DNA of 64,000 bases from Syntrophales bacterium (lineage in GTDB: Bacteria > Desulfobacterota > Syntrophia > Syntrophales > PHBD01), in NCBI GenBank assembly GCA_963668175.1, contig OY764159.1:3360001-3424000 (forward strand), read 5' to 3'. The position numbers were made by a program. The stretch's first letter is position 1. Each line of letters opens with the position of its first letter. This document shows positions 42,001 to 47,397 of the stretch, in pieces.

Positions 42001-45000
42001 CAGATAATTCACCCATCCGTTTGGTGTTAGACCAAAGAAATTGCCGCCAATAAACCCGATGAATATTTCGACCAACGCCACCGAAATGGCAACCCTTATG
42101 GAGATAAGGGACGACAATAGGGCAAAACCCATCCAGATCGCGGATGTAAACCAGACATTTTCCACCATAACAACGACTCTCCTTGTGTGATGAACTCCCG
42201 CGCCGTCAATCTGAAACATGACGTCGCGATATACGAAGGAGTCATCAGCTCAAGGAGCAGTTAAGGTGGACCCCATCACCGGTTCAGGCGTCATCAGTCC
42301 CAGGGACATTGCTGGCGGACGCCATCGCCGATCCGAAGCTTTACGATCCTTTCTGGAAAGGATTCTCGAAGATGGCCGATTTGCCCAACTCCGCCTCGAT
42401 CTCCAGCAGGCGGTTGTACTTGGCGATACGCTCGCTCCGGCAGCCGGAGCCGGTCTTGATCTGCCCCCCGCCCATGGCGACGGCAAAATCGGCGAGGAAG
42501 GTGTCCTCCGTCTCCCCGGAGCGGTGCGAGACGACGAATCCCCAGCCCGCCTTGCGGCAGAGATTGATCGCCGCCATCGTCTCCGTCACGGTGCCGATCT
42601 GGTTGAGCTTGATCAGCACGGCATTGGCCGCCTTCTCCCGGACGCCCTTCTCGATGTATCGCGCATTCGTCACAAAGAGATCGTCGCCGACGACCTGGAT
42701 TTTGTCGCCCGTTTGGGCCGTCAGTTTCTTAAAGCCTTTCCAGTCGTTTTCCGCGTGGCCGTCTTCGATGGATACGATGGGATACTTTTTGATCCAGCCC
42801 TGGTAGAAGGCGACCATCTCGTCGCTCGTCTTCTTTCCCTGGCCTGACTTGGCGAGATGGTATGCGCCTTTTTGATAAAAGGAGCTGGCTGCCGGGTCCA
42901 GGGCGATGGCGATGTCGCGGCCGGGCTTGTACCCTGCCTTCTCGATGGCCTGGATGATCAGCTCGCACGCCTCGTCGTTGCTCTTCAAGTTGGGCGCAAA
43001 TCCCCCTTCGTCGCCCACGGCGGTGGCGTATCCCTTGCCGCCCAGGATTTTCTTGAGGGCGTGGAAAGTCTCGACGCCGTACCGGAGCGCCTCGGCAAAG
43101 GAAAGGGCGCCTATGGGCATCACCATGAATTCCTGGAAATCGACGCTGTTGTCGGCATGCATCCCGCCGTTCAAGATGTTCATCATGGGGACGGGAAGGC
43201 GCAGGGCGCCGAATCCGCCCAGGTAGGCGTAGAGGGGGATATCTGCCGCGTGGGCGGCCGCCCGGGCGACGGCCATCGAGACGCTGATGATGGCGTTGGC
43301 GCCGAGTTTGCTCTTGTTCGGCGTCTTGTCCAGGAGGATCATCAGGCGGTCGATTTCGGCCTGATGCGTCGGGTCCATGTCGATGAGGACCGGTGCGATG
43401 ACTTCGTTGACATGGGCGACGGCTTTGAGGACGCCCTTTCCGCCGTAACGGGTCCGGCCGCCGTCGCGCAGTTCCATCGCTTCGTTCTCTCCCGTCGAAG
43501 CGCCGGACGGGCAGGACGCAGACGCCCTGATGCCGTTGTCGAGGACGACCGTGGCCTTGACGGTGGGATTACCCCTTGAGTCCAGGATTTCCATGGCCTG
43601 GATGGCTTTGATTTTTCGGATCATGAGTCACTCCTTTCCTGATGGCTTGGCAGCTTGGCCAATTGATTTTCGAGATCGGCGATAACCTTTCTTATCTCTT
43701 CCGTCCGGCCGTGGGCGCCGGCGATAAGCGCCTCCATGGTCGCGAACTCTTCCTCCACGTAAAGGACGGCCTGCCGGCGCATGGCGTCGATGGCCCTGTT
43801 GATCCGGGTTTCCCACTGGGAGGCGACGCGCGACAGGTTGACCTCCACCTCCCAGGGGATCTTTTTTACGAAGCTCCTTTCAAAGGCGCCCCGGAAGATA
43901 AACATGGGGATCAGAAACCAGACGAGGTCGAGATGATAGCCGAAGGCCCTGGGAAAGCTCGTGTCCGGATGGTCGGGTTCCGCGACGTCGATCCGCCATT
44001 CCACTTCGCCGAGGCCGACCCCCAGCACCTTACGGAGGTTGTCGTCCAGAAGCCTGCGGAAGAACTCGAGCGAGCGGATCAGGCTGGCGTGCGCCTTCTT
44101 GAGGGTGCCATAGAAGTGCCTGTGCTCCGCCGCGGAGATCTTCCTCATCTCCTCGTCCATGGCCTCCGATACCCATGCCTCGTACCTGCGTGTCAGCGTC
44201 CAGAGGTTGCCCCGCCACGACGGCATCTCCGTGCGTAGGGCATCCGTTATTTTCCTGCACAGGGGTGCCTCGAAGGGCGTCAGGTAATTCGCAATCAGAG
44301 TCCGCGTCTGGCCCTGGATATCCCGCGTGACGATCGACATCTCCTCCCGGACGATACCGGCGTTGACTCGTTCGTCCAGGATCATTTTCTTAAGCGCGTT
44401 GCGGTCCCGGTCGGCCGCAAGGGAGGCCTGCAGGGCGACTTGCAGGTAGGCCAGGCATTCCCGAACCAGGGAGCGCCCCTTGTGCCGGGCGATGTGGCCG
44501 AATTCGGAGGCCCTGTTGGCCACGAGTTTCCGGAACAGCTCCGCCTCCAGGATTTCTCTCCAGGATTCCGCAGCCGTCCGCGTGGAATAGAGATAGATGG
44601 GAAATTCCCTGTTCAGCTCCCGCGCCAGGGTCTTTCGGAAGAACGCCACCACCTCGTCCTGTTGGTCCGGCGTCAGCAGGTCGGCCTTGGTGAGCAGAAG
44701 GACAATCCTGGGCGTATGGGCCGTAAGCTCCCTGATGAGCGAAAGGTCGTGTTCGGAAAGGGGGCGGTCGGCGCTGATGGCGAGGATGGCGGCGCCGACT
44801 TCCGGCAGCCAGTTTTCCGACGTCGCCTTGTGGTACTGGAAGACGCTGCCCAGCCCCGGCGTATCGACGATGCGGAGCCCTTCGAAGGCTGCAAGGGTTG
44901 GAAGCGTGCAGTCGATGACCTCCACGTTTTTCTCATTGGCCGGGTTTTTCGCTTCGGACGTGTAGTCGGCAAGGGCGTCCAGCGGTATCGACGTCTTTTT

Positions 45001-47397
45001 CCCGTCAAAATGCGTGACGACCGCCTGTTCCGTTTCCCCGTACTGTAATCTCGTAATGGCCGTGGTGACGGGGATAACGCCCACGGGCAGGATGGGCCTT
45101 CCGATCAGGCTGTTGATGAACGAGCTCTTGCCTGCCTTGAACTGCCCGAGGACGGCCACGTCGATTGGCGCGTCTTCGGCAAGGAGGCTGCGGTAGGCGG
45201 CCAGGGAACGCTTGAGGGAGGCGATCTGAAAATCGTCCGCGGCGGACGCGACGGTCGCGTGTATCTCCTTGAGGAGGGACAGGGATGGATTGTCGGCTGC
45301 GTAAGCCATAAAAAAAACTCCTTCAGATCGTCTCTGTCAGGAGTTATCATCCCTTGATGTAGGCCTTAATGCAGGCCTTGCTGCGGGCGGTTATTAGGTG
45401 AACTCCATCACCTTGTTTTTTTATATTTATCTTAATCCTTTTTGTCAATTCATATTATTTTGTGCGAACTTTCTTTAAGTTATCATTAACCTAATTCATA
45501 CATAAAAATCGCCAACTCGCAGGTGCTGTAAATGCTCGCAAAGTTTTTTCAGCGAGAGCTTCTGTTGATTTACTTAAATAATCAACGGCGTAAATGATTA
45601 TAATGCCCGGAGACAAATGGCATCCTGCCTGAACGAATATGGGTTTATCCTTATACATGTCTTACTTCGATCTAAGCAAACCAATGTAAGTATCCTGATT
45701 TAGGCGGGAAGGCCGGACAGAAAATCGGTCAACGAATCTCGTTTCGGACCATCGAGCCAGGTTCAGGGATAAAACCTGTAACGAGTTGCAGGTTCCGGCG
45801 GAGGCAGTGGCCAGCGTCTCCTTCCCTCCCCTCTCCCCTCCCTCACTACGGCGCCGGCTAGCACGGCTGTAAGGCGCCCCTGGGGCGTGCTTCACCTCCA
45901 CCGAAATGAATTGTCCCCCAGAAAGTTCAAACTTTGAACAATTCACTGAAGAGAAGCTGAAGAGTGCGCAGCGATTCGAGAACCGAGGTGCAGGGGCTCG
46001 CCCCGGAACTGTCCCCACATTCATCTTGGAATATCTACGAAGCCGAGGGTGCAGAAGTTTTTCATTCCGACAAGCCGAAGGAAGGCAAGAAGAGACTTTC
46101 CCACTCAAGACAGGCATGGGAGAAGAACGCTTTCCTGCTCACCACAAACCCCAATCTATATTTCTCATAACCATTCACGATGATTTTCTCAGTCAGTCGT
46201 TTTAATTTTTCGCAACCATGCGGAAACATCGCTTTGTGCGTTTTTAGCGTCCCTTCCCCAGACTGCAAGTCCGTCCTGAATCGTTGATTTCGGGCAGAGT
46301 TTTCTAATATCCGCAACGCTTCCGCTCAGGCCACTGCCACCATGTGTACAAAATGGTACGATGATTTTTCCCGAGAAATCGTATTCCGACAGAAAGGTTC
46401 TTATCGGAGTAGGAAGCCTGCCCCACCAAATGGGGTAACCTATGAAGACTACATCATACGTCTTCATGTTCCTTATTTTTGTTTTCAATGCCGGTTTGTA
46501 ACCTGATACCTGTTCCTGCATCGCTACTTTCTTTACCTCTTCATAATCCTCCGGATATGGCTCTACGACCTGAATTTCAACCATATCACCGCCTACGCCT
46601 CTGTGAATTTGATTGGCAATTTCACGCGTATTGCCGGTGCGAGAAAAATAAGCCACCAGAATCTTCTTGGTTCCTGGCGATTGTTGAGCTTCCGCTTCGT
46701 TTATCTTTCCCATATTCACAAGCCCGGGGCCTTCTGCGACAGAATCCATGTGAATCCGGACGCCCATAAATACGAGGATCGCAACGATTGGCAGAACATA
46801 ATATATCTTTTTCATGACTCACCTCATTTCTTACTGTTAATTTGAATGCCGCTCAGGCTCCTTACCTCTCCTGCCAACGAGTACGTGATAAACGACGCTG
46901 TCCCAGGCATTGCGAATACCGATGAAGAGTAGCATAAGCGCAGCAGCCCCAACGCCAAATAAGGCCTCACGGGCGTAGCAAGGAGCCGCCAATGCAGACA
47001 GTACGATTATTATGTATGTAGCAAGAGGCAGCACTGCATAAAACAACCAGTCCTCAAACTCGGGCCTGTAAAAAGTCTGTGTTCGCATGTGCCGAGTTAC
47101 AATTACGGAATAAATTATTCCGCTTAGACCGATAAATCCCCAAAAAGTTGCGGTAATGCCGATCGTTTGCCATGGAGCACACAGAAGTGCAGACAAAAGC
47201 AAAGCAGCGCCAAAATGAACGATCGTGGGCGTAGCGAATGCAGCACTGGCAGCAGCTGTCGGGGGCCTGTCGACAATGAGCGTCATGACGACGAACTGCA
47301 ATCCTATCAATGCTCCCGCAGCCGGTCCGACGATCACATAGAAGCTGTTCCATTCAGCGAGCAGTTCTGCCATATTTTCACCTCTATCCGGCTTTCA

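What a model noticed while it worked through the whole genome (the two positions that open the first line are those of the whole stretch)
42341..45421. Fluoride-riboswitch-controlled IniA/BDLP-like dynamin GTPase
A fluoride riboswitch (3405331-3405421, minus strand) sits directly in front of g03084, a 562-aa bacterial dynamin-like GTPase, which is followed by a second enolase. The same pairing recurs in nearly every homologous locus examined (76 of 79 loci in the widest set) and is the commonest target of fluoride riboswitches across Syntrophales. Boldest reading: this is a dedicated fluoride-stress dynamin that repairs or remodels the membrane (IniA-like) when fluoride rises, a new arm of the bacterial fluoride response. 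New: no dynamin-like protein has been tied to fluoride or to any riboswitch.
Evidence so far: Local and first test (rna.tsv, call 49): Rfam RF01734 scores 42.9 bits upstream of g03084. It scores 46.6-59.8 bits, 20-200 nt upstream of the homolog, in 12 of 12 loci from find_related_loci. The gene is mostly monocistronic. Reverse test: 88 of 151 Syntrophales genomes have a fluoride riboswitch. After the 30 best-scoring ones, the first downstream ORF carries Dynamin_N in 18, Na_H_Exchanger in 8, enolase in 1, and no Pfam family in 3. Wider test: a profile-guided scan of 185,579 species genomes found 558 relatives. I scanned 79 of the best 80 loci, several being the same places as the first 12 (50-72% identity; Syntrophales, Syntrophorhabdales, Bacteriovoracaceae, one Spirochaetota MAG). 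[...]
(Added by a program. Inside this text positions count along the whole contig: contig position 3,360,001 is position 1 of the stretch shown here. "Call 12" and the like, gene names such as g00115 and contig names such as C1 are that model's own, and its searches are not shown. The text may have been shortened before it was handed on; [...] marks where a part breaks off. The agent that wrote the report below was given it as the finding of a first reader that could run no searches.)

Follow-up and report, generated by a model that had tools for sequence, protein, structure and literature searches.

The report
Fluoride riboswitch controlling a bacterial dynamin
A fluoride-sensing RNA switch sits directly in front of a dynamin-like membrane GTPase and a spare enolase gene, and the same pairing recurs in many bacterial groups, which points to an undescribed, probably membrane-protecting, part of how microbes cope with fluoride.

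Summary
Rfam RF01734 scores 42.9 bits at 45331-45421(-). A terminator overlaps the aptamer's 3' strand, 21 nt before a 562-aa Dynamin_N protein whose stop overlaps the start of a second enolase.

In 151 genomes of the same order, 50 of 52 assessable orthologues have the riboswitch no more than 105 nt upstream. It heads 57 of 111 riboswitches, making the dynamin the commonest target. None of 47 other dynamin genes has one within 5 kb.

A deliberately distant sample of 80 loci gives 54 of 78 assessable (36 direct, 18 through an operon). Record titles carry about 13 phylum-level labels. A Bacteroidota branch mostly lacks the riboswitch.

The protein is a BDLP/IniA-class dynamin (pLDDT 92.6; Foldseek IniA and BDLP at E 2e-17). 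It has a conserved short hydrophobic tip and no transmembrane segment.

Fluoride control is well supported. Membrane repair is inferred only. "Mostly monocistronic" and "nearly every locus" need qualifying.

No searchable paper holds fluoride, riboswitch and dynamin together. Baker 2012 could not be read. This scan noted the pairing before on other DNA.

The parts
45420..45448 (-). Promoter-like element TTGACA-17 nt-TATAAA just upstream of the aptamer
   Evidence: Read from the sequence. The consensus scan does not list it because its rule needs T at position 6 of the -10 hexamer.
45331..45421 (-). Fluoride riboswitch aptamer (RF01734) with a 28-nt hairpin insert in the variable loop
   Evidence: 42.9 bits against a gathering score of 34, model 1-64. 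The fold shows P1 and the insert hairpin. The published consensus allows a 0-48 nt insert that forms a stem when longer than 12 nt (Weinberg 2010 supplement text).
45310..45345 (-). Expression platform: a terminator hairpin (AACUCCU...AGGAGUU) followed by U8. Its 5' arm is the aptamer's pseudoknot strand, and its 3' arm holds the Shine-Dalgarno AAGGAG (45318-45323).
   Evidence: Sequence. MFE fold -40 kcal/mol, z -4.66, 0 of 200 shuffles fold as well.
43621..45309 (-). Dynamin-like GTPase, 562 aa (P0001), BDLP/IniA class. G1 GQFKAGKSS, switch I T82, G3 DTPG, G4 TKAD. Hydrophobic tip at residues 462-472.
42341..43624 (-). Second enolase, 427 aa, start overlapping the dynamin stop (ATGA)
42229..42289 (-). 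Second fluoride riboswitch, 52 nt after the enolase stop and ending 9 nt before the next ATG
   Evidence: 53 bits; sequence.
41023..42219 (-). Na_H_Exchanger (CPA2-type) membrane protein, 398 aa, behind the second riboswitch
   Evidence: Pfam 1.4e-40. NCBIfam CPA2 subfamily at 101 bits, below its cut-off.
40611..41030 (-). Universal stress protein, 139 aa
   Evidence: Usp 2.5e-30.
39743..40684 (-). Prenyltransferase/terpene-cyclase-like alpha-alpha toroid protein (313-aa ORF, no signal peptide seen). It is a recurrent member of these islands.

Best explanation
A fluoride-riboswitch ON switch drives a two-gene operon: a dynamin-like GTPase followed by a spare enolase.

How the switch works. Without fluoride, the aptamer's 3' strand (ACUCC, 45340-45344) pairs into a terminator hairpin that ends in U8 and buries the Shine-Dalgarno sequence. 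Transcription then stops 1 nt before the start codon. When cytoplasmic fluoride rises, the same strand is taken up by the aptamer pseudoknot with GGAGU (45402-45406). The terminator cannot form, and both genes are made.

What the protein does. It is a soluble BDLP/IniA-class dynamin: a G domain, two long helical bundles, and a short conserved hydrophobic tip. I think it most likely docks on the cytoplasmic membrane and uses GTP-driven G-domain dimerisation to seal, tether or reshape membrane stressed by fluoride. The enolase meanwhile offsets fluoride inhibition of glycolysis.

What is shown and what is inferred. Shown by computation: the RNA match, the platform geometry, the fold class, and the recurrence and specificity of the pairing. 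Inferred: fluoride induction in vivo, membrane binding, and the repair role.
For: RNA and platform.

Protein class:
- Dynamin_N at 1.4e-25.
- Invariant G1-G4 residues in 91 relatives.
- AlphaFold model with pLDDT 92.6 and pTM 0.86.
- Foldseek IniA 6j72 at E 1.8e-17 and BDLP 2j69 at 1.9e-17, both over nearly the whole length.
- PDB profile hits to C. jejuni DLP 5owv, IniA and BDLP.

Tip: a conserved F456, D-L-L-W-F-L-I-P468-M-x-L-F-R473 stretch. No 19-residue window exceeds a Kyte-Doolittle mean of 1.46.

Recurrence in the order:
- 50 of 53 orthologues have the riboswitch upstream, 50 of 52 if only assessable ones count.
- 57 of 111 riboswitches head a dynamin. The next commonest target is Na_H_Exchanger, with 29.

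Specificity: 0 of 47 other Dynamin_N genes have a riboswitch within 5 kb.

Breadth:
- 54 of 78 assessable distant loci have the riboswitch. The record titles carry about 13 phylum-level labels.
- A very divergent clade of 582-639-aa ORFs is also riboswitch-led in 3 of 3 loci.

Dedicated gene: this is the only true dynamin in the genome.

Company: the same islands hold known fluoride-regulon genes, namely enolase, Na_H_Exchanger, Usp, MutS_V, DUF190, CLC and CrcB.

Against: - No expression, binding or phenotype data exist. No RNA run was listed.
- The window's aptamer is the weakest of those that lead full-length orthologues in the order (42.9 bits). Its conserved UGAUGA reads UGAUAA.
- 24 of 78 distant loci have no riboswitch within 2.5 kb, 15 of them in Bacteroidota, Chlorobiota or Ignavibacteria. 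A permissive scan of 21 of these 24 added only one 25-bit candidate. The family is therefore not fluoride-bound everywhere.
- Nothing here shows that fluoride damages membranes in this organism.
- Many co-regulated partners are nucleotide-handling proteins (HIT, Metallophos+dUTPase_2, MutS_V, AAA_16), which could point to a role away from the membrane.
- Related genomes are not independent. 6 of the 80 wide loci are the same places as in my order sample.
Confidence: 0.5

Rival explanations
1. Compensation or decoy. Metal-fluoride complexes (AlFx, BeFx, MgFx with GDP) trap GTPases in a transition-state-like form. The riboswitch would then supply extra GTPase to replace or titrate poisoned protein, the same logic as the spare enolase.
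For: The gene is co-transcribed with a second enolase. Transition-like-state structures of mitofusin and Fzo1 appear among the fold matches. That these states are made with metal fluorides is recalled knowledge.
Against: The genome has only this one true dynamin, so there is no housekeeping copy to replace. The other dynamin paralogues in the order never carry the riboswitch (0 of 47). A protein cannot buffer fluoride stoichiometrically at toxic concentrations (inference).
Confidence: 0.12
2. Fluoride-locked scaffold. Fluoride is the inducer and also a cofactor. GDP plus a metal fluoride locks the G domains as dimers, so the protein forms a long-lived tether or coat on the membrane exactly while fluoride is high.
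For: The gene is made only under fluoride control. The catalytic residues are strictly conserved. Family-specific invariants E119, N122, P123 and N125 in the G domain are not conserved in IniA or BDLP.
Against: This is pure inference. No structural or biochemical test was possible, and the role of the family-specific motif is unknown.
Confidence: 0.1
3. Helper of ion export or of vesicle shedding. The dynamin would assist the riboswitch-controlled Na_H_Exchanger-type transporters, or pinch off vesicles that carry fluoride precipitates away.
For: Na_H_Exchanger genes are the second commonest riboswitch target (29 of 111). They often lie in the same island or operon, as in the window and in L060, L083, L070 and L086. 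CrcB is nearly missing from the order (6 of 151).
Against: Many dynamin loci have no transporter nearby. Earlier scan notes report dynamins in operons with CrcB, so the gene is not tied to one exporter type.
Confidence: 0.1
4. A nucleotide- or DNA-linked role, like the clamp-binding dynamin CrfC, working alongside the MutS-like, HIT and phosphoesterase partners rather than on membranes.
For: Recurrent partners are HIT (within three downstream genes in 12 of 37 loci), MutS_V, Metallophos_2+dUTPase_2 and AAA_16.
Against: The CrfC model scores 19 bits against a cut-off of 1146. The whole-length fold matches are to membrane-active BDLP and IniA. The hydrophobic tip is conserved.
Confidence: 0.05
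5. An anti-phage 'Dynamins' (LeoA-type) defence gene that merely lies next to a riboswitch.
For: PADLOC LeoA at 2.4e-10 and LeoBC at 3.5e-4.
Against: Those matches cover only the P-loop region (residues 11-70 of 562), and there are no LeoB or LeoC partners. The riboswitch linkage recurs in 50 of 52 orthologues.
Confidence: 0.02

Closest known systems
IniA of Mycobacterium (PDB 6j72/6j73)
   Same: Best whole-length fold match (Foldseek E 1.8e-17, 588 aligned columns) and best single-sequence PDB match (1.3e-15). It is a single-headed bacterial dynamin-like protein with a G domain, helical bundles and a lipid-binding tip. It is induced by a stress, namely cell-wall-acting drugs (recalled).
   Different: Only 18% identity in the structural alignment. 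The control is a fluoride riboswitch rather than a drug-responsive protein regulator. There are no iniB or iniC neighbours. The family-specific E-x-x-N-P-x-N motif and tip sequence are not shared.
BDLP of Nostoc punctiforme (2j68/2j69) and Campylobacter jejuni DLP1/DLP2 (5owv)
   Same: Same fold class. The C. jejuni DLP is the best profile match (2.5e-27).
   Different: Those proteins are 600-730 aa, and the C. jejuni ones work as a heterotypic pair. Here there is one 562-aa gene and no second dynamin in the genome. No riboswitch is known for them.
Classical fluoride-riboswitch units (crcB, eriC-F/CLC-F, enolase, pyrophosphatase, Na+/H+ antiporter, MutS-like, Usp)
   Same: Same RNA family, with a terminator overlapping the aptamer as described for crcB RNAs (Weinberg 2010, section read). 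The same companions are present: enolase, Na_H_Exchanger, Usp, MutS_V, CrcB, H+-PPase.
   Different: The leading gene is a dynamin-like GTPase. It is absent from the gene lists I could read: Weinberg 2010 text and 8 supplement files, the introduction of PMC12700350 and passages of PMC9971707. Baker 2012 was not readable.
DynA of Bacillus subtilis and LeoA-type 'Dynamins' defence
   Same: Bacterial dynamin-like proteins linked to membrane protection (recalled).
   Different: NCBIfam DynA scores 37.7 bits against a cut-off of 1600. PADLOC LeoA matches only the P-loop region.

Membership tests
Fluoride riboswitch (Rfam RF01734, crcB motif) | Covariance-model score at or above the curated gathering score over the full model | tested here: met
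   42.9 bits against 34, model positions 1-64. The same place was found in the whole-genome search.
Fluoride riboswitch (Rfam RF01734, crcB motif) | P1 helix, second helix with a variable loop, and a pseudoknot between the P1 loop and the 3' tail | tested here: met
   P1 and the insert hairpin appear in the fold. GGAGU (45402-45406) is complementary to ACUCC (45340-45344) in the sequence. One conserved position differs: UGAUAA for UGAUGA.
Fluoride riboswitch (Rfam RF01734, crcB motif) | Expression platform that competes with the aptamer (an ON switch) | tested here: met
   A terminator hairpin with U8 shares the ACUCCU strand with the aptamer and covers the Shine-Dalgarno sequence.
Fluoride riboswitch (Rfam RF01734, crcB motif) | Selective binding of fluoride and fluoride-dependent gene expression | not testable with these tools
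   Needs in-line probing or a reporter assay. No RNA sequencing run was listed.
Bacterial dynamin-like proteins (BDLP/IniA class, Pfam Dynamin_N) | Dynamin-type G domain with G1-G4 motifs, above the Pfam cut-off | tested here: met
   Dynamin_N at 90.7 bits against a cut-off of 27. G55, G60, K61, T82, D149, P151, G152, K208 and D210 are invariant in 91 sequences.
Bacterial dynamin-like proteins (BDLP/IniA class, Pfam Dynamin_N) | Helical neck and trunk bundles after the G domain, with overall fold similarity to solved BDLPs | tested here: met
   The model (pLDDT 92.6) has long helices at 247-429 and 460-552. Foldseek matches IniA and BDLP at E about 2e-17 over 588-678 columns. TM-scores are low (0.31-0.39), as expected for hinged proteins.
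Bacterial dynamin-like proteins (BDLP/IniA class, Pfam Dynamin_N) | Membrane-binding paddle or loop at the trunk tip | tested here: inconclusive
   There is a conserved 11-residue hydrophobic stretch (462-472), flanked by acidic and basic residues, after a non-helical segment (430-459). No transmembrane-length segment is present. Binding itself was not tested.
Bacterial dynamin-like proteins (BDLP/IniA class, Pfam Dynamin_N) | Lipid-stimulated GTP hydrolysis and membrane fission, fusion or tethering | not testable with these tools
   Needs biochemistry.
DynA / CrfC / LeoA named subfamilies | Score above the curated NCBIfam cut-off, or a full-length PADLOC match | tested here: not met
   DynA 37.7 of 1600 bits and CrfC 19.2 of 1146 bits. 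LeoA matches residues 11-70 only.

The most novel reading that the evidence does not exclude
An ancient, cross-phylum family of about 550-aa dynamins is dedicated to fluoride stress, and fluoride acts on it twice. First, fluoride induces the gene through the riboswitch. Second, as a GDP-metal-fluoride complex, it locks the G domains into the dimer that tethers or seals membrane. The cell membrane would then be a primary target of fluoride toxicity, and this dynamin a main line of defence in anaerobes that lack CrcB.
Probability: 0.12. Interest if true: 0.9.

Novelty: new variant of a known kind. Interest (0 to 1): 0.72.

Why it matters
Known fluoride defences are exporters (Fluc/CrcB, CLC-F) and extra copies of inhibited enzymes. 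In this order, a dynamin-like GTPase is the commonest riboswitch target, while CrcB was found in only 6 of 151 genomes. It also recurs behind the same riboswitch under about 13 phylum-level labels. That would add a membrane-level arm to the fluoride response.

It would also give bacterial dynamins, whose natural triggers are mostly unknown, a defined chemical inducer that is cheap to apply in the laboratory. The function of a whole dynamin subfamily then becomes directly testable. This is relevant to fluoride toxicity, to engineering fluoride-tolerant defluorinating strains, and to riboswitch-guided gene function discovery.

Tried and rejected
- Expression data: the look-up of sequencing runs listed 4 runs of one study that hold the DNA and no RNA holder. 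I laid no reads.
- Papers: Baker et al. 2012 (PMC4140402) and McIlwain et al. 2021 (PMC8217344) are not held. Their gene lists and supplements may name a GTPase and could not be checked. A search for HIT with phosphofluoridate gave one irrelevant paper.
- 'Bacterial dynamin' with 'fluoride' gave 13 papers, 12 listed. Judged by titles and abstract starts alone, none concerns a bacterial fluoride response.
- Defence-system reading: PADLOC gives only P-loop matches to LeoA and LeoBC.
- Named subfamilies: no NCBIfam model reaches its cut-off.
- Hidden weak riboswitches in the riboswitch-less loci: a permissive Rfam scan of 21 of the 24 found none, apart from a 25-bit candidate in L114.
- The consensus terminator scan missed the platform hairpin and listed only chance-level sites (5 found, 4.0 expected). 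I rely on the fold instead.
- I did not run complex prediction, because I make no binding claim that it would decide.

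
Full report
OBSERVATION

Rfam RF01734 matches the window twice on the minus strand. 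One match is at 45331-45421 (42.9 bits, gathering score 34, E 2.9e-9, full model, with a 28-nt insert in the variable loop). The other is at 42229-42289 (53 bits).

Behind the first lies ORF 43621-45309(-), 562 aa, with Dynamin_N at 1.4e-25. Its stop overlaps by 4 nt the start of ORF 42341-43624(-), an enolase. Behind the second riboswitch lie a Na_H_Exchanger (41023-42219), a Usp (40611-41030) and a prenyltransferase-like toroid protein (39743-40684), all on the minus strand.

The genome is a single 4.57-Mb contig, 100% complete.
- It has three fluoride riboswitches. The third also precedes a Na_H_Exchanger.
- It has two enolases.
- It has one CLC, in a 604-aa frame and not next to any of the three riboswitches.
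- It has no CrcB.
- It has only one true dynamin. The three other Dynamin_N hits score 21-24 bits over the P-loop of shorter frames.

ANATOMY OF THE SWITCH

Read from the sequence, TTGACA-17 nt-TATAAA lies at 45420-45448, directly before P1. The fold (-40 kcal/mol, z -4.66, 0 of 200 shuffles as good) shows three elements:
- P1;
- a hairpin formed by the insert, which fits the published consensus ('0-48 nt, has stem when > 12 nt'; Weinberg 2010 supplement text);
- a hairpin AACUCCU...AGGAGUU followed by eight U, ending 1 nt before the ATG.

The 5' arm of this terminator contains ACUCC (45340-45344). This is the strand that pairs with GGAGU (45402-45406) of the P1 loop in the ligand-bound pseudoknot. 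Its 3' arm contains the Shine-Dalgarno AAGGAG.

The aptamer is the weakest of those that lead full-length orthologues in the order, and it reads UGAUAA where the consensus has UGAUGA. The two copies in the closest relative score 49.6 and 54.7 bits.

THE PROTEIN

P0001 has G1 GQFKAGKSS, switch I T82, G3 DTPG and G4 TKAD. These residues are invariant in an alignment of 91 relatives. Also invariant are N122, N125, F456, P468 and R494, and nearly invariant are E119 and P123.

The family is large and uniform. HMMER finds 17,045 cluster representatives at E<=1e-3 and 937 at E<=1e-30. Most of the best 150 are 530-590 aa and align over nearly the whole length. Sources name members 'dynamin family protein' or mislabel them 'EngB'.

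The AlphaFold model is confident (pLDDT 92.6, pTM 0.86). It has these parts:
- a G domain;
- long helices at 247-429 and 460-552;
- a non-helical stretch at 430-459.

Foldseek ranks IniA (6j72, E 1.8e-17) and BDLP (2j69, 1.9e-17) first, over 588-678 columns. SynDLP, the C. jejuni DLP pair and the mitofusins follow. Sequence profiles agree.

The tip carries a conserved hydrophobic stretch (462-472, consensus LLWFLIPMxLF) between acidic and basic residues. No window has the length and hydrophobicity of a transmembrane helix.

No NCBIfam model reaches its cut-off. PADLOC LeoA matches only the P-loop region. The protein is therefore a distinct subfamily of the BDLP/IniA class, and it looks like a peripheral membrane protein.

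IS THE PAIRING REAL? THE ORDER-LEVEL TEST

I searched the same 151 genomes of the window's order (62 genera) with RF01734 and with P0001, then compared coordinates.
- There are 111 riboswitch hits over the cut-off, in 71 genomes.
- Of 53 full-length-type relatives (at least 400 bits, N-terminus present, the window included), 50 have a riboswitch on the same strand 15-105 nt before the extrapolated start.

The three misses are:
- a gene cut by its contig end (contig length 3617);
- a 42%-identical paralogue with nothing upstream even at a permissive threshold;
- one true orthologue without a riboswitch within 2.4 kb (L050 = L117).

Counted the other way, 57 of the 111 riboswitches precede a dynamin, in 56 of the 71 genomes. 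I fetched the other 54 and scanned the longest downstream frame. They precede:
- Na_H_Exchanger: 29;
- MutS_V: 3;
- NADHdh: 2;
- one each of CrcB, MoxR-type AAA_3, DUF1232, H+-PPase, DUF6062, AAA_16 and His_Phos_1;
- no Pfam family: 10;
- cut by a contig end: 3.

SPECIFICITY CONTROL

The same genomes hold 47 other Dynamin_N genes, one class of about 750 aa and one of about 575-660 aa. None has any RF01734 hit (E<=1e-3) within 5 kb, although 17 of their 41 genomes have a riboswitch elsewhere.

Three very divergent relatives (28-34% identity; called ORFs of 582-639 aa) do have a riboswitch 163-194 nt upstream. They form a separate deep clade.

THE WIDE TEST, DELIBERATELY CENTRED AWAY FROM THE WINDOW

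I built an alignment of 28 distant members (at most 33% identical to P0001) with a distant first sequence. I scanned one genome per species with it.

Rfam at gathering scores and a script give:
- 36 loci with the riboswitch no more than 450 nt upstream;
- 18 loci with it 451-2500 nt upstream on the same strand;
- 24 loci with none in the available upstream DNA;
- 2 loci not assessable.

In the 18, the genes between the riboswitch and the dynamin lie on the same strand in most loci. The annotated ones are:
- Abhydrolase_1: L055, L058, L060;
- Na_H_Exchanger with or without Usp: L060, L083;
- Usp: L082;
- enolase: L096, L105, L112;
- a Metallophos_2+dUTPase_2 fusion: L080, L091, L129;
- AAA_16: L078, L130;
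- DUF190: L108.

Of the 24 without a riboswitch, 15 are labelled Bacteroidota, Chlorobiota or Ignavibacteria. A permissive scan of 21 of the 24 added only a 25-bit candidate in L114. Several of the rest have fluoride-type same-strand neighbours that run into the locus edge, so a riboswitch may lie beyond it:
- L070: Na_H_Exchanger-enolase-dynamin-HIT;
- L086: Na_H_Exchanger-MFS-dynamin;
- L120: CLC+DUF190-dynamin;
- L127: enolase-glutamine synthetase-dynamin.

Record titles of riboswitch-positive loci carry about 13 phylum-level labels: Desulfobacterota-type 'Deltaproteobacteria', Verrucomicrobiota, Bacteroidota, Chlorobiota, Spirochaetota, NC10, Actinomycetota, Acidobacteriota, Sumerlaeota, Planctomycetota, Elusimicrobiota, Hydrogenedentota and Bdellovibrionota. 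These are labels of metagenome bins and are unverified.

A quick maximum-likelihood tree of 113 rows gives these groups:
- a Syntrophia-type clade of 61 rows, 59 with a direct riboswitch;
- a mixed-phylum clade of 26 rows (10 direct, 11 via an operon, 5 none);
- a Bacteroidota-centred clade of 19 rows (4 via an operon, 14 none, 1 not assessable);
- four rows placed outside these clades (L070 and L075, Spirochaetota-labelled, plus L086 and L127): one direct, three none;
- the deep divergent clade of 3 rows, all direct.

The label needs at least 11 changes on the tree. Six wide loci are identical to places in my order sample, so the two samples overlap slightly.

My reading is that the link is old and family-wide, but it has been lost or moved out of range in one large branch.

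OPERON CONTEXT

In 24 of 37 orthologous loci from the order, a same-strand gene follows within 120 nt. In 7 the next gene is on the other strand. The gene is therefore more often polycistronic than not.

The first downstream same-strand gene within 300 nt is:
- enolase in 10 of 37 loci, and in the window;
- a roughly 146-aa HIT protein in 7;
- the prenyltransferase-like protein in 4;
- DUF1232 in 2;
- an unknown 231-aa protein followed by GGGtGRT in 2.

HIT occurs among the three downstream genes in 12 of 37 loci. AAA_16 plus DUF6062 recur in L018, L030 and L049 (L041 and L045 have AAA_16 followed by the prenyltransferase-like protein).

MECHANISM

Shown by computation: a canonical riboswitch with a competing terminator, a BDLP/IniA-class dynamin with an intact catalytic site and a hydrophobic tip, and a recurrent, specific linkage in company with known fluoride-response genes.

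Inferred: fluoride turns the operon on, and the protein binds the cytoplasmic membrane and repairs or reshapes it.

The inference rests on what solved relatives do (IniA, BDLP, DynA; recalled). It also rests on the report that fluoride causes extensive membrane and wall damage in S. mutans (PMC12700350, passages read).

Because this is the only dynamin in the genome, and the other dynamin paralogues in the order are never riboswitch-linked, a simple 'spare copy' logic like that of the enolase is unlikely. The gene looks dedicated to the fluoride condition.

A bolder option is that GDP-metal-fluoride locks its G-domain dimer, so that fluoride is also a cofactor. Nothing here tests that.

NOVELTY

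Literature checks:
- 'fluoride riboswitch' with 'dynamin': 0 papers.
- 'fluoride', 'riboswitch' and 'dynamin' together: 0 papers.
- 'fluoride riboswitch' with 'GTPase': 8 papers. In the two I opened (PMC9971707; PMC12700350) the GTPase mentions are unrelated. The others I judged by title and abstract only.
- Weinberg 2010: neither the text nor the 8 supplement files contain dynamin, GTPase or GTP-binding.
- The 2025 summary of fluoride responses lists exporters, enolase, pyrophosphatase, ATPases, the Na+/H+ antiporter and metal transporters, with no dynamin.
- Baker 2012 and the 2021 review could not be read.

This scan has noted the same pairing before on other DNA: 66 notes in at least 51 genomes. 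Those are AI notes, not independent evidence, though their claim matches what I tested here.

VERDICT

The regulatory link is very likely real and unreported in the literature I could search. The function is plausible but untested.

Noticed in passing
whole genome G000; order sample: CrcB/Fluc is missing from this complete genome and was found in only 6 of 151 genomes of the order, against 11 of 14 control genomes. Instead, 29 of 111 fluoride riboswitches precede CPA2-type Na_H_Exchanger proteins of about 380-440 aa. These may be the fluoride or proton handlers of this group.
   Followed up: partly
L011, L016, L020, L025, L026, L028, L035, L047 (directly downstream); L012, L013, L015, L019, L032, L070 (nearby): A HIT-domain protein of about 146 aa is a recurrent partner of the riboswitch-led dynamin (within three downstream genes in 12 of 37 order loci). 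HIT enzymes are known to me (recalled) to hydrolyse nucleoside 5'-phosphofluoridates, so it may clear fluoride-nucleotide adducts. No HIT gene was seen among the window ORFs I scanned (38-52 kb).
   Followed up: partly
window 39743-40684(-); also L012, L013, L015, L027, L032, L033, L038, L039, L041, L043, L045, L048: A cytoplasmic prenyltransferase/terpene-cyclase-like alpha-alpha toroid protein (about 280-325 aa, repeated GGF motifs, no NCBIfam model above its cut-off) recurs in the fluoride islands. Its role is unknown.
   Followed up: partly
L047-L049 (G115:C268, G047:C21, G106:C29): A second, very divergent dynamin clade (28-34% identity to P0001; called ORFs of 582-639 aa) is also preceded by fluoride riboswitches 163-194 nt upstream. 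It is followed by HIT, the prenyltransferase-like protein, or enolase-AAA_16-DUF6062.
   Followed up: partly
L051-L057, L061, L063, L074 and L055, L058, L060: In Bacteroidota-labelled bins an Abhydrolase_1 gene directly precedes the dynamin on the same strand. Only 3 of these pairs have a fluoriderriboswitch in front within 2.5 kb, so the pair may be controlled differently there.
   Followed up: partly
L080, L081, L091, L129 (Verrucomicrobiota-type): A 376-378-aa fusion of a calcineurin-like phosphoesterase (Metallophos_2) with an all-alpha NTP pyrophosphatase domain (dUTPase_2) sits between the riboswitch and the dynamin. In L091 a MoxR-type AAA_3 ATPase comes first.
   Followed up: no
window 38429-39582(-): An ECF sigma factor (38429-39070) and a Metal_resist/LTXXQ (Spy/CpxP-like) protein (39103-39582) lie on the same strand just downstream of the fluoride island. 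This is a possible envelope-stress module, and no link to the island was tested.
   Followed up: no
window 42229-42289(-) and 42219: The second riboswitch has no terminator-like hairpin after it and ends 9 nt before the ATG of the exchanger gene, so it probably acts on translation. Transcripts from the first riboswitch could also read into it.
   Followed up: no
L094 214-272(-): An nhaA-I (Na+) riboswitch candidate (RF03057, 42.7 bits against 37) lies about 2 kb from a fluoride-riboswitch-led dynamin in a Bacteriovoracaceae-labelled bin.
   Followed up: no
window 45662-46117(-) and 46837-47373(-): Two ORFs (151 and 178 aa) upstream of the island have no Pfam family. The 151-aa one also has no NCBIfam match.
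   Followed up: no
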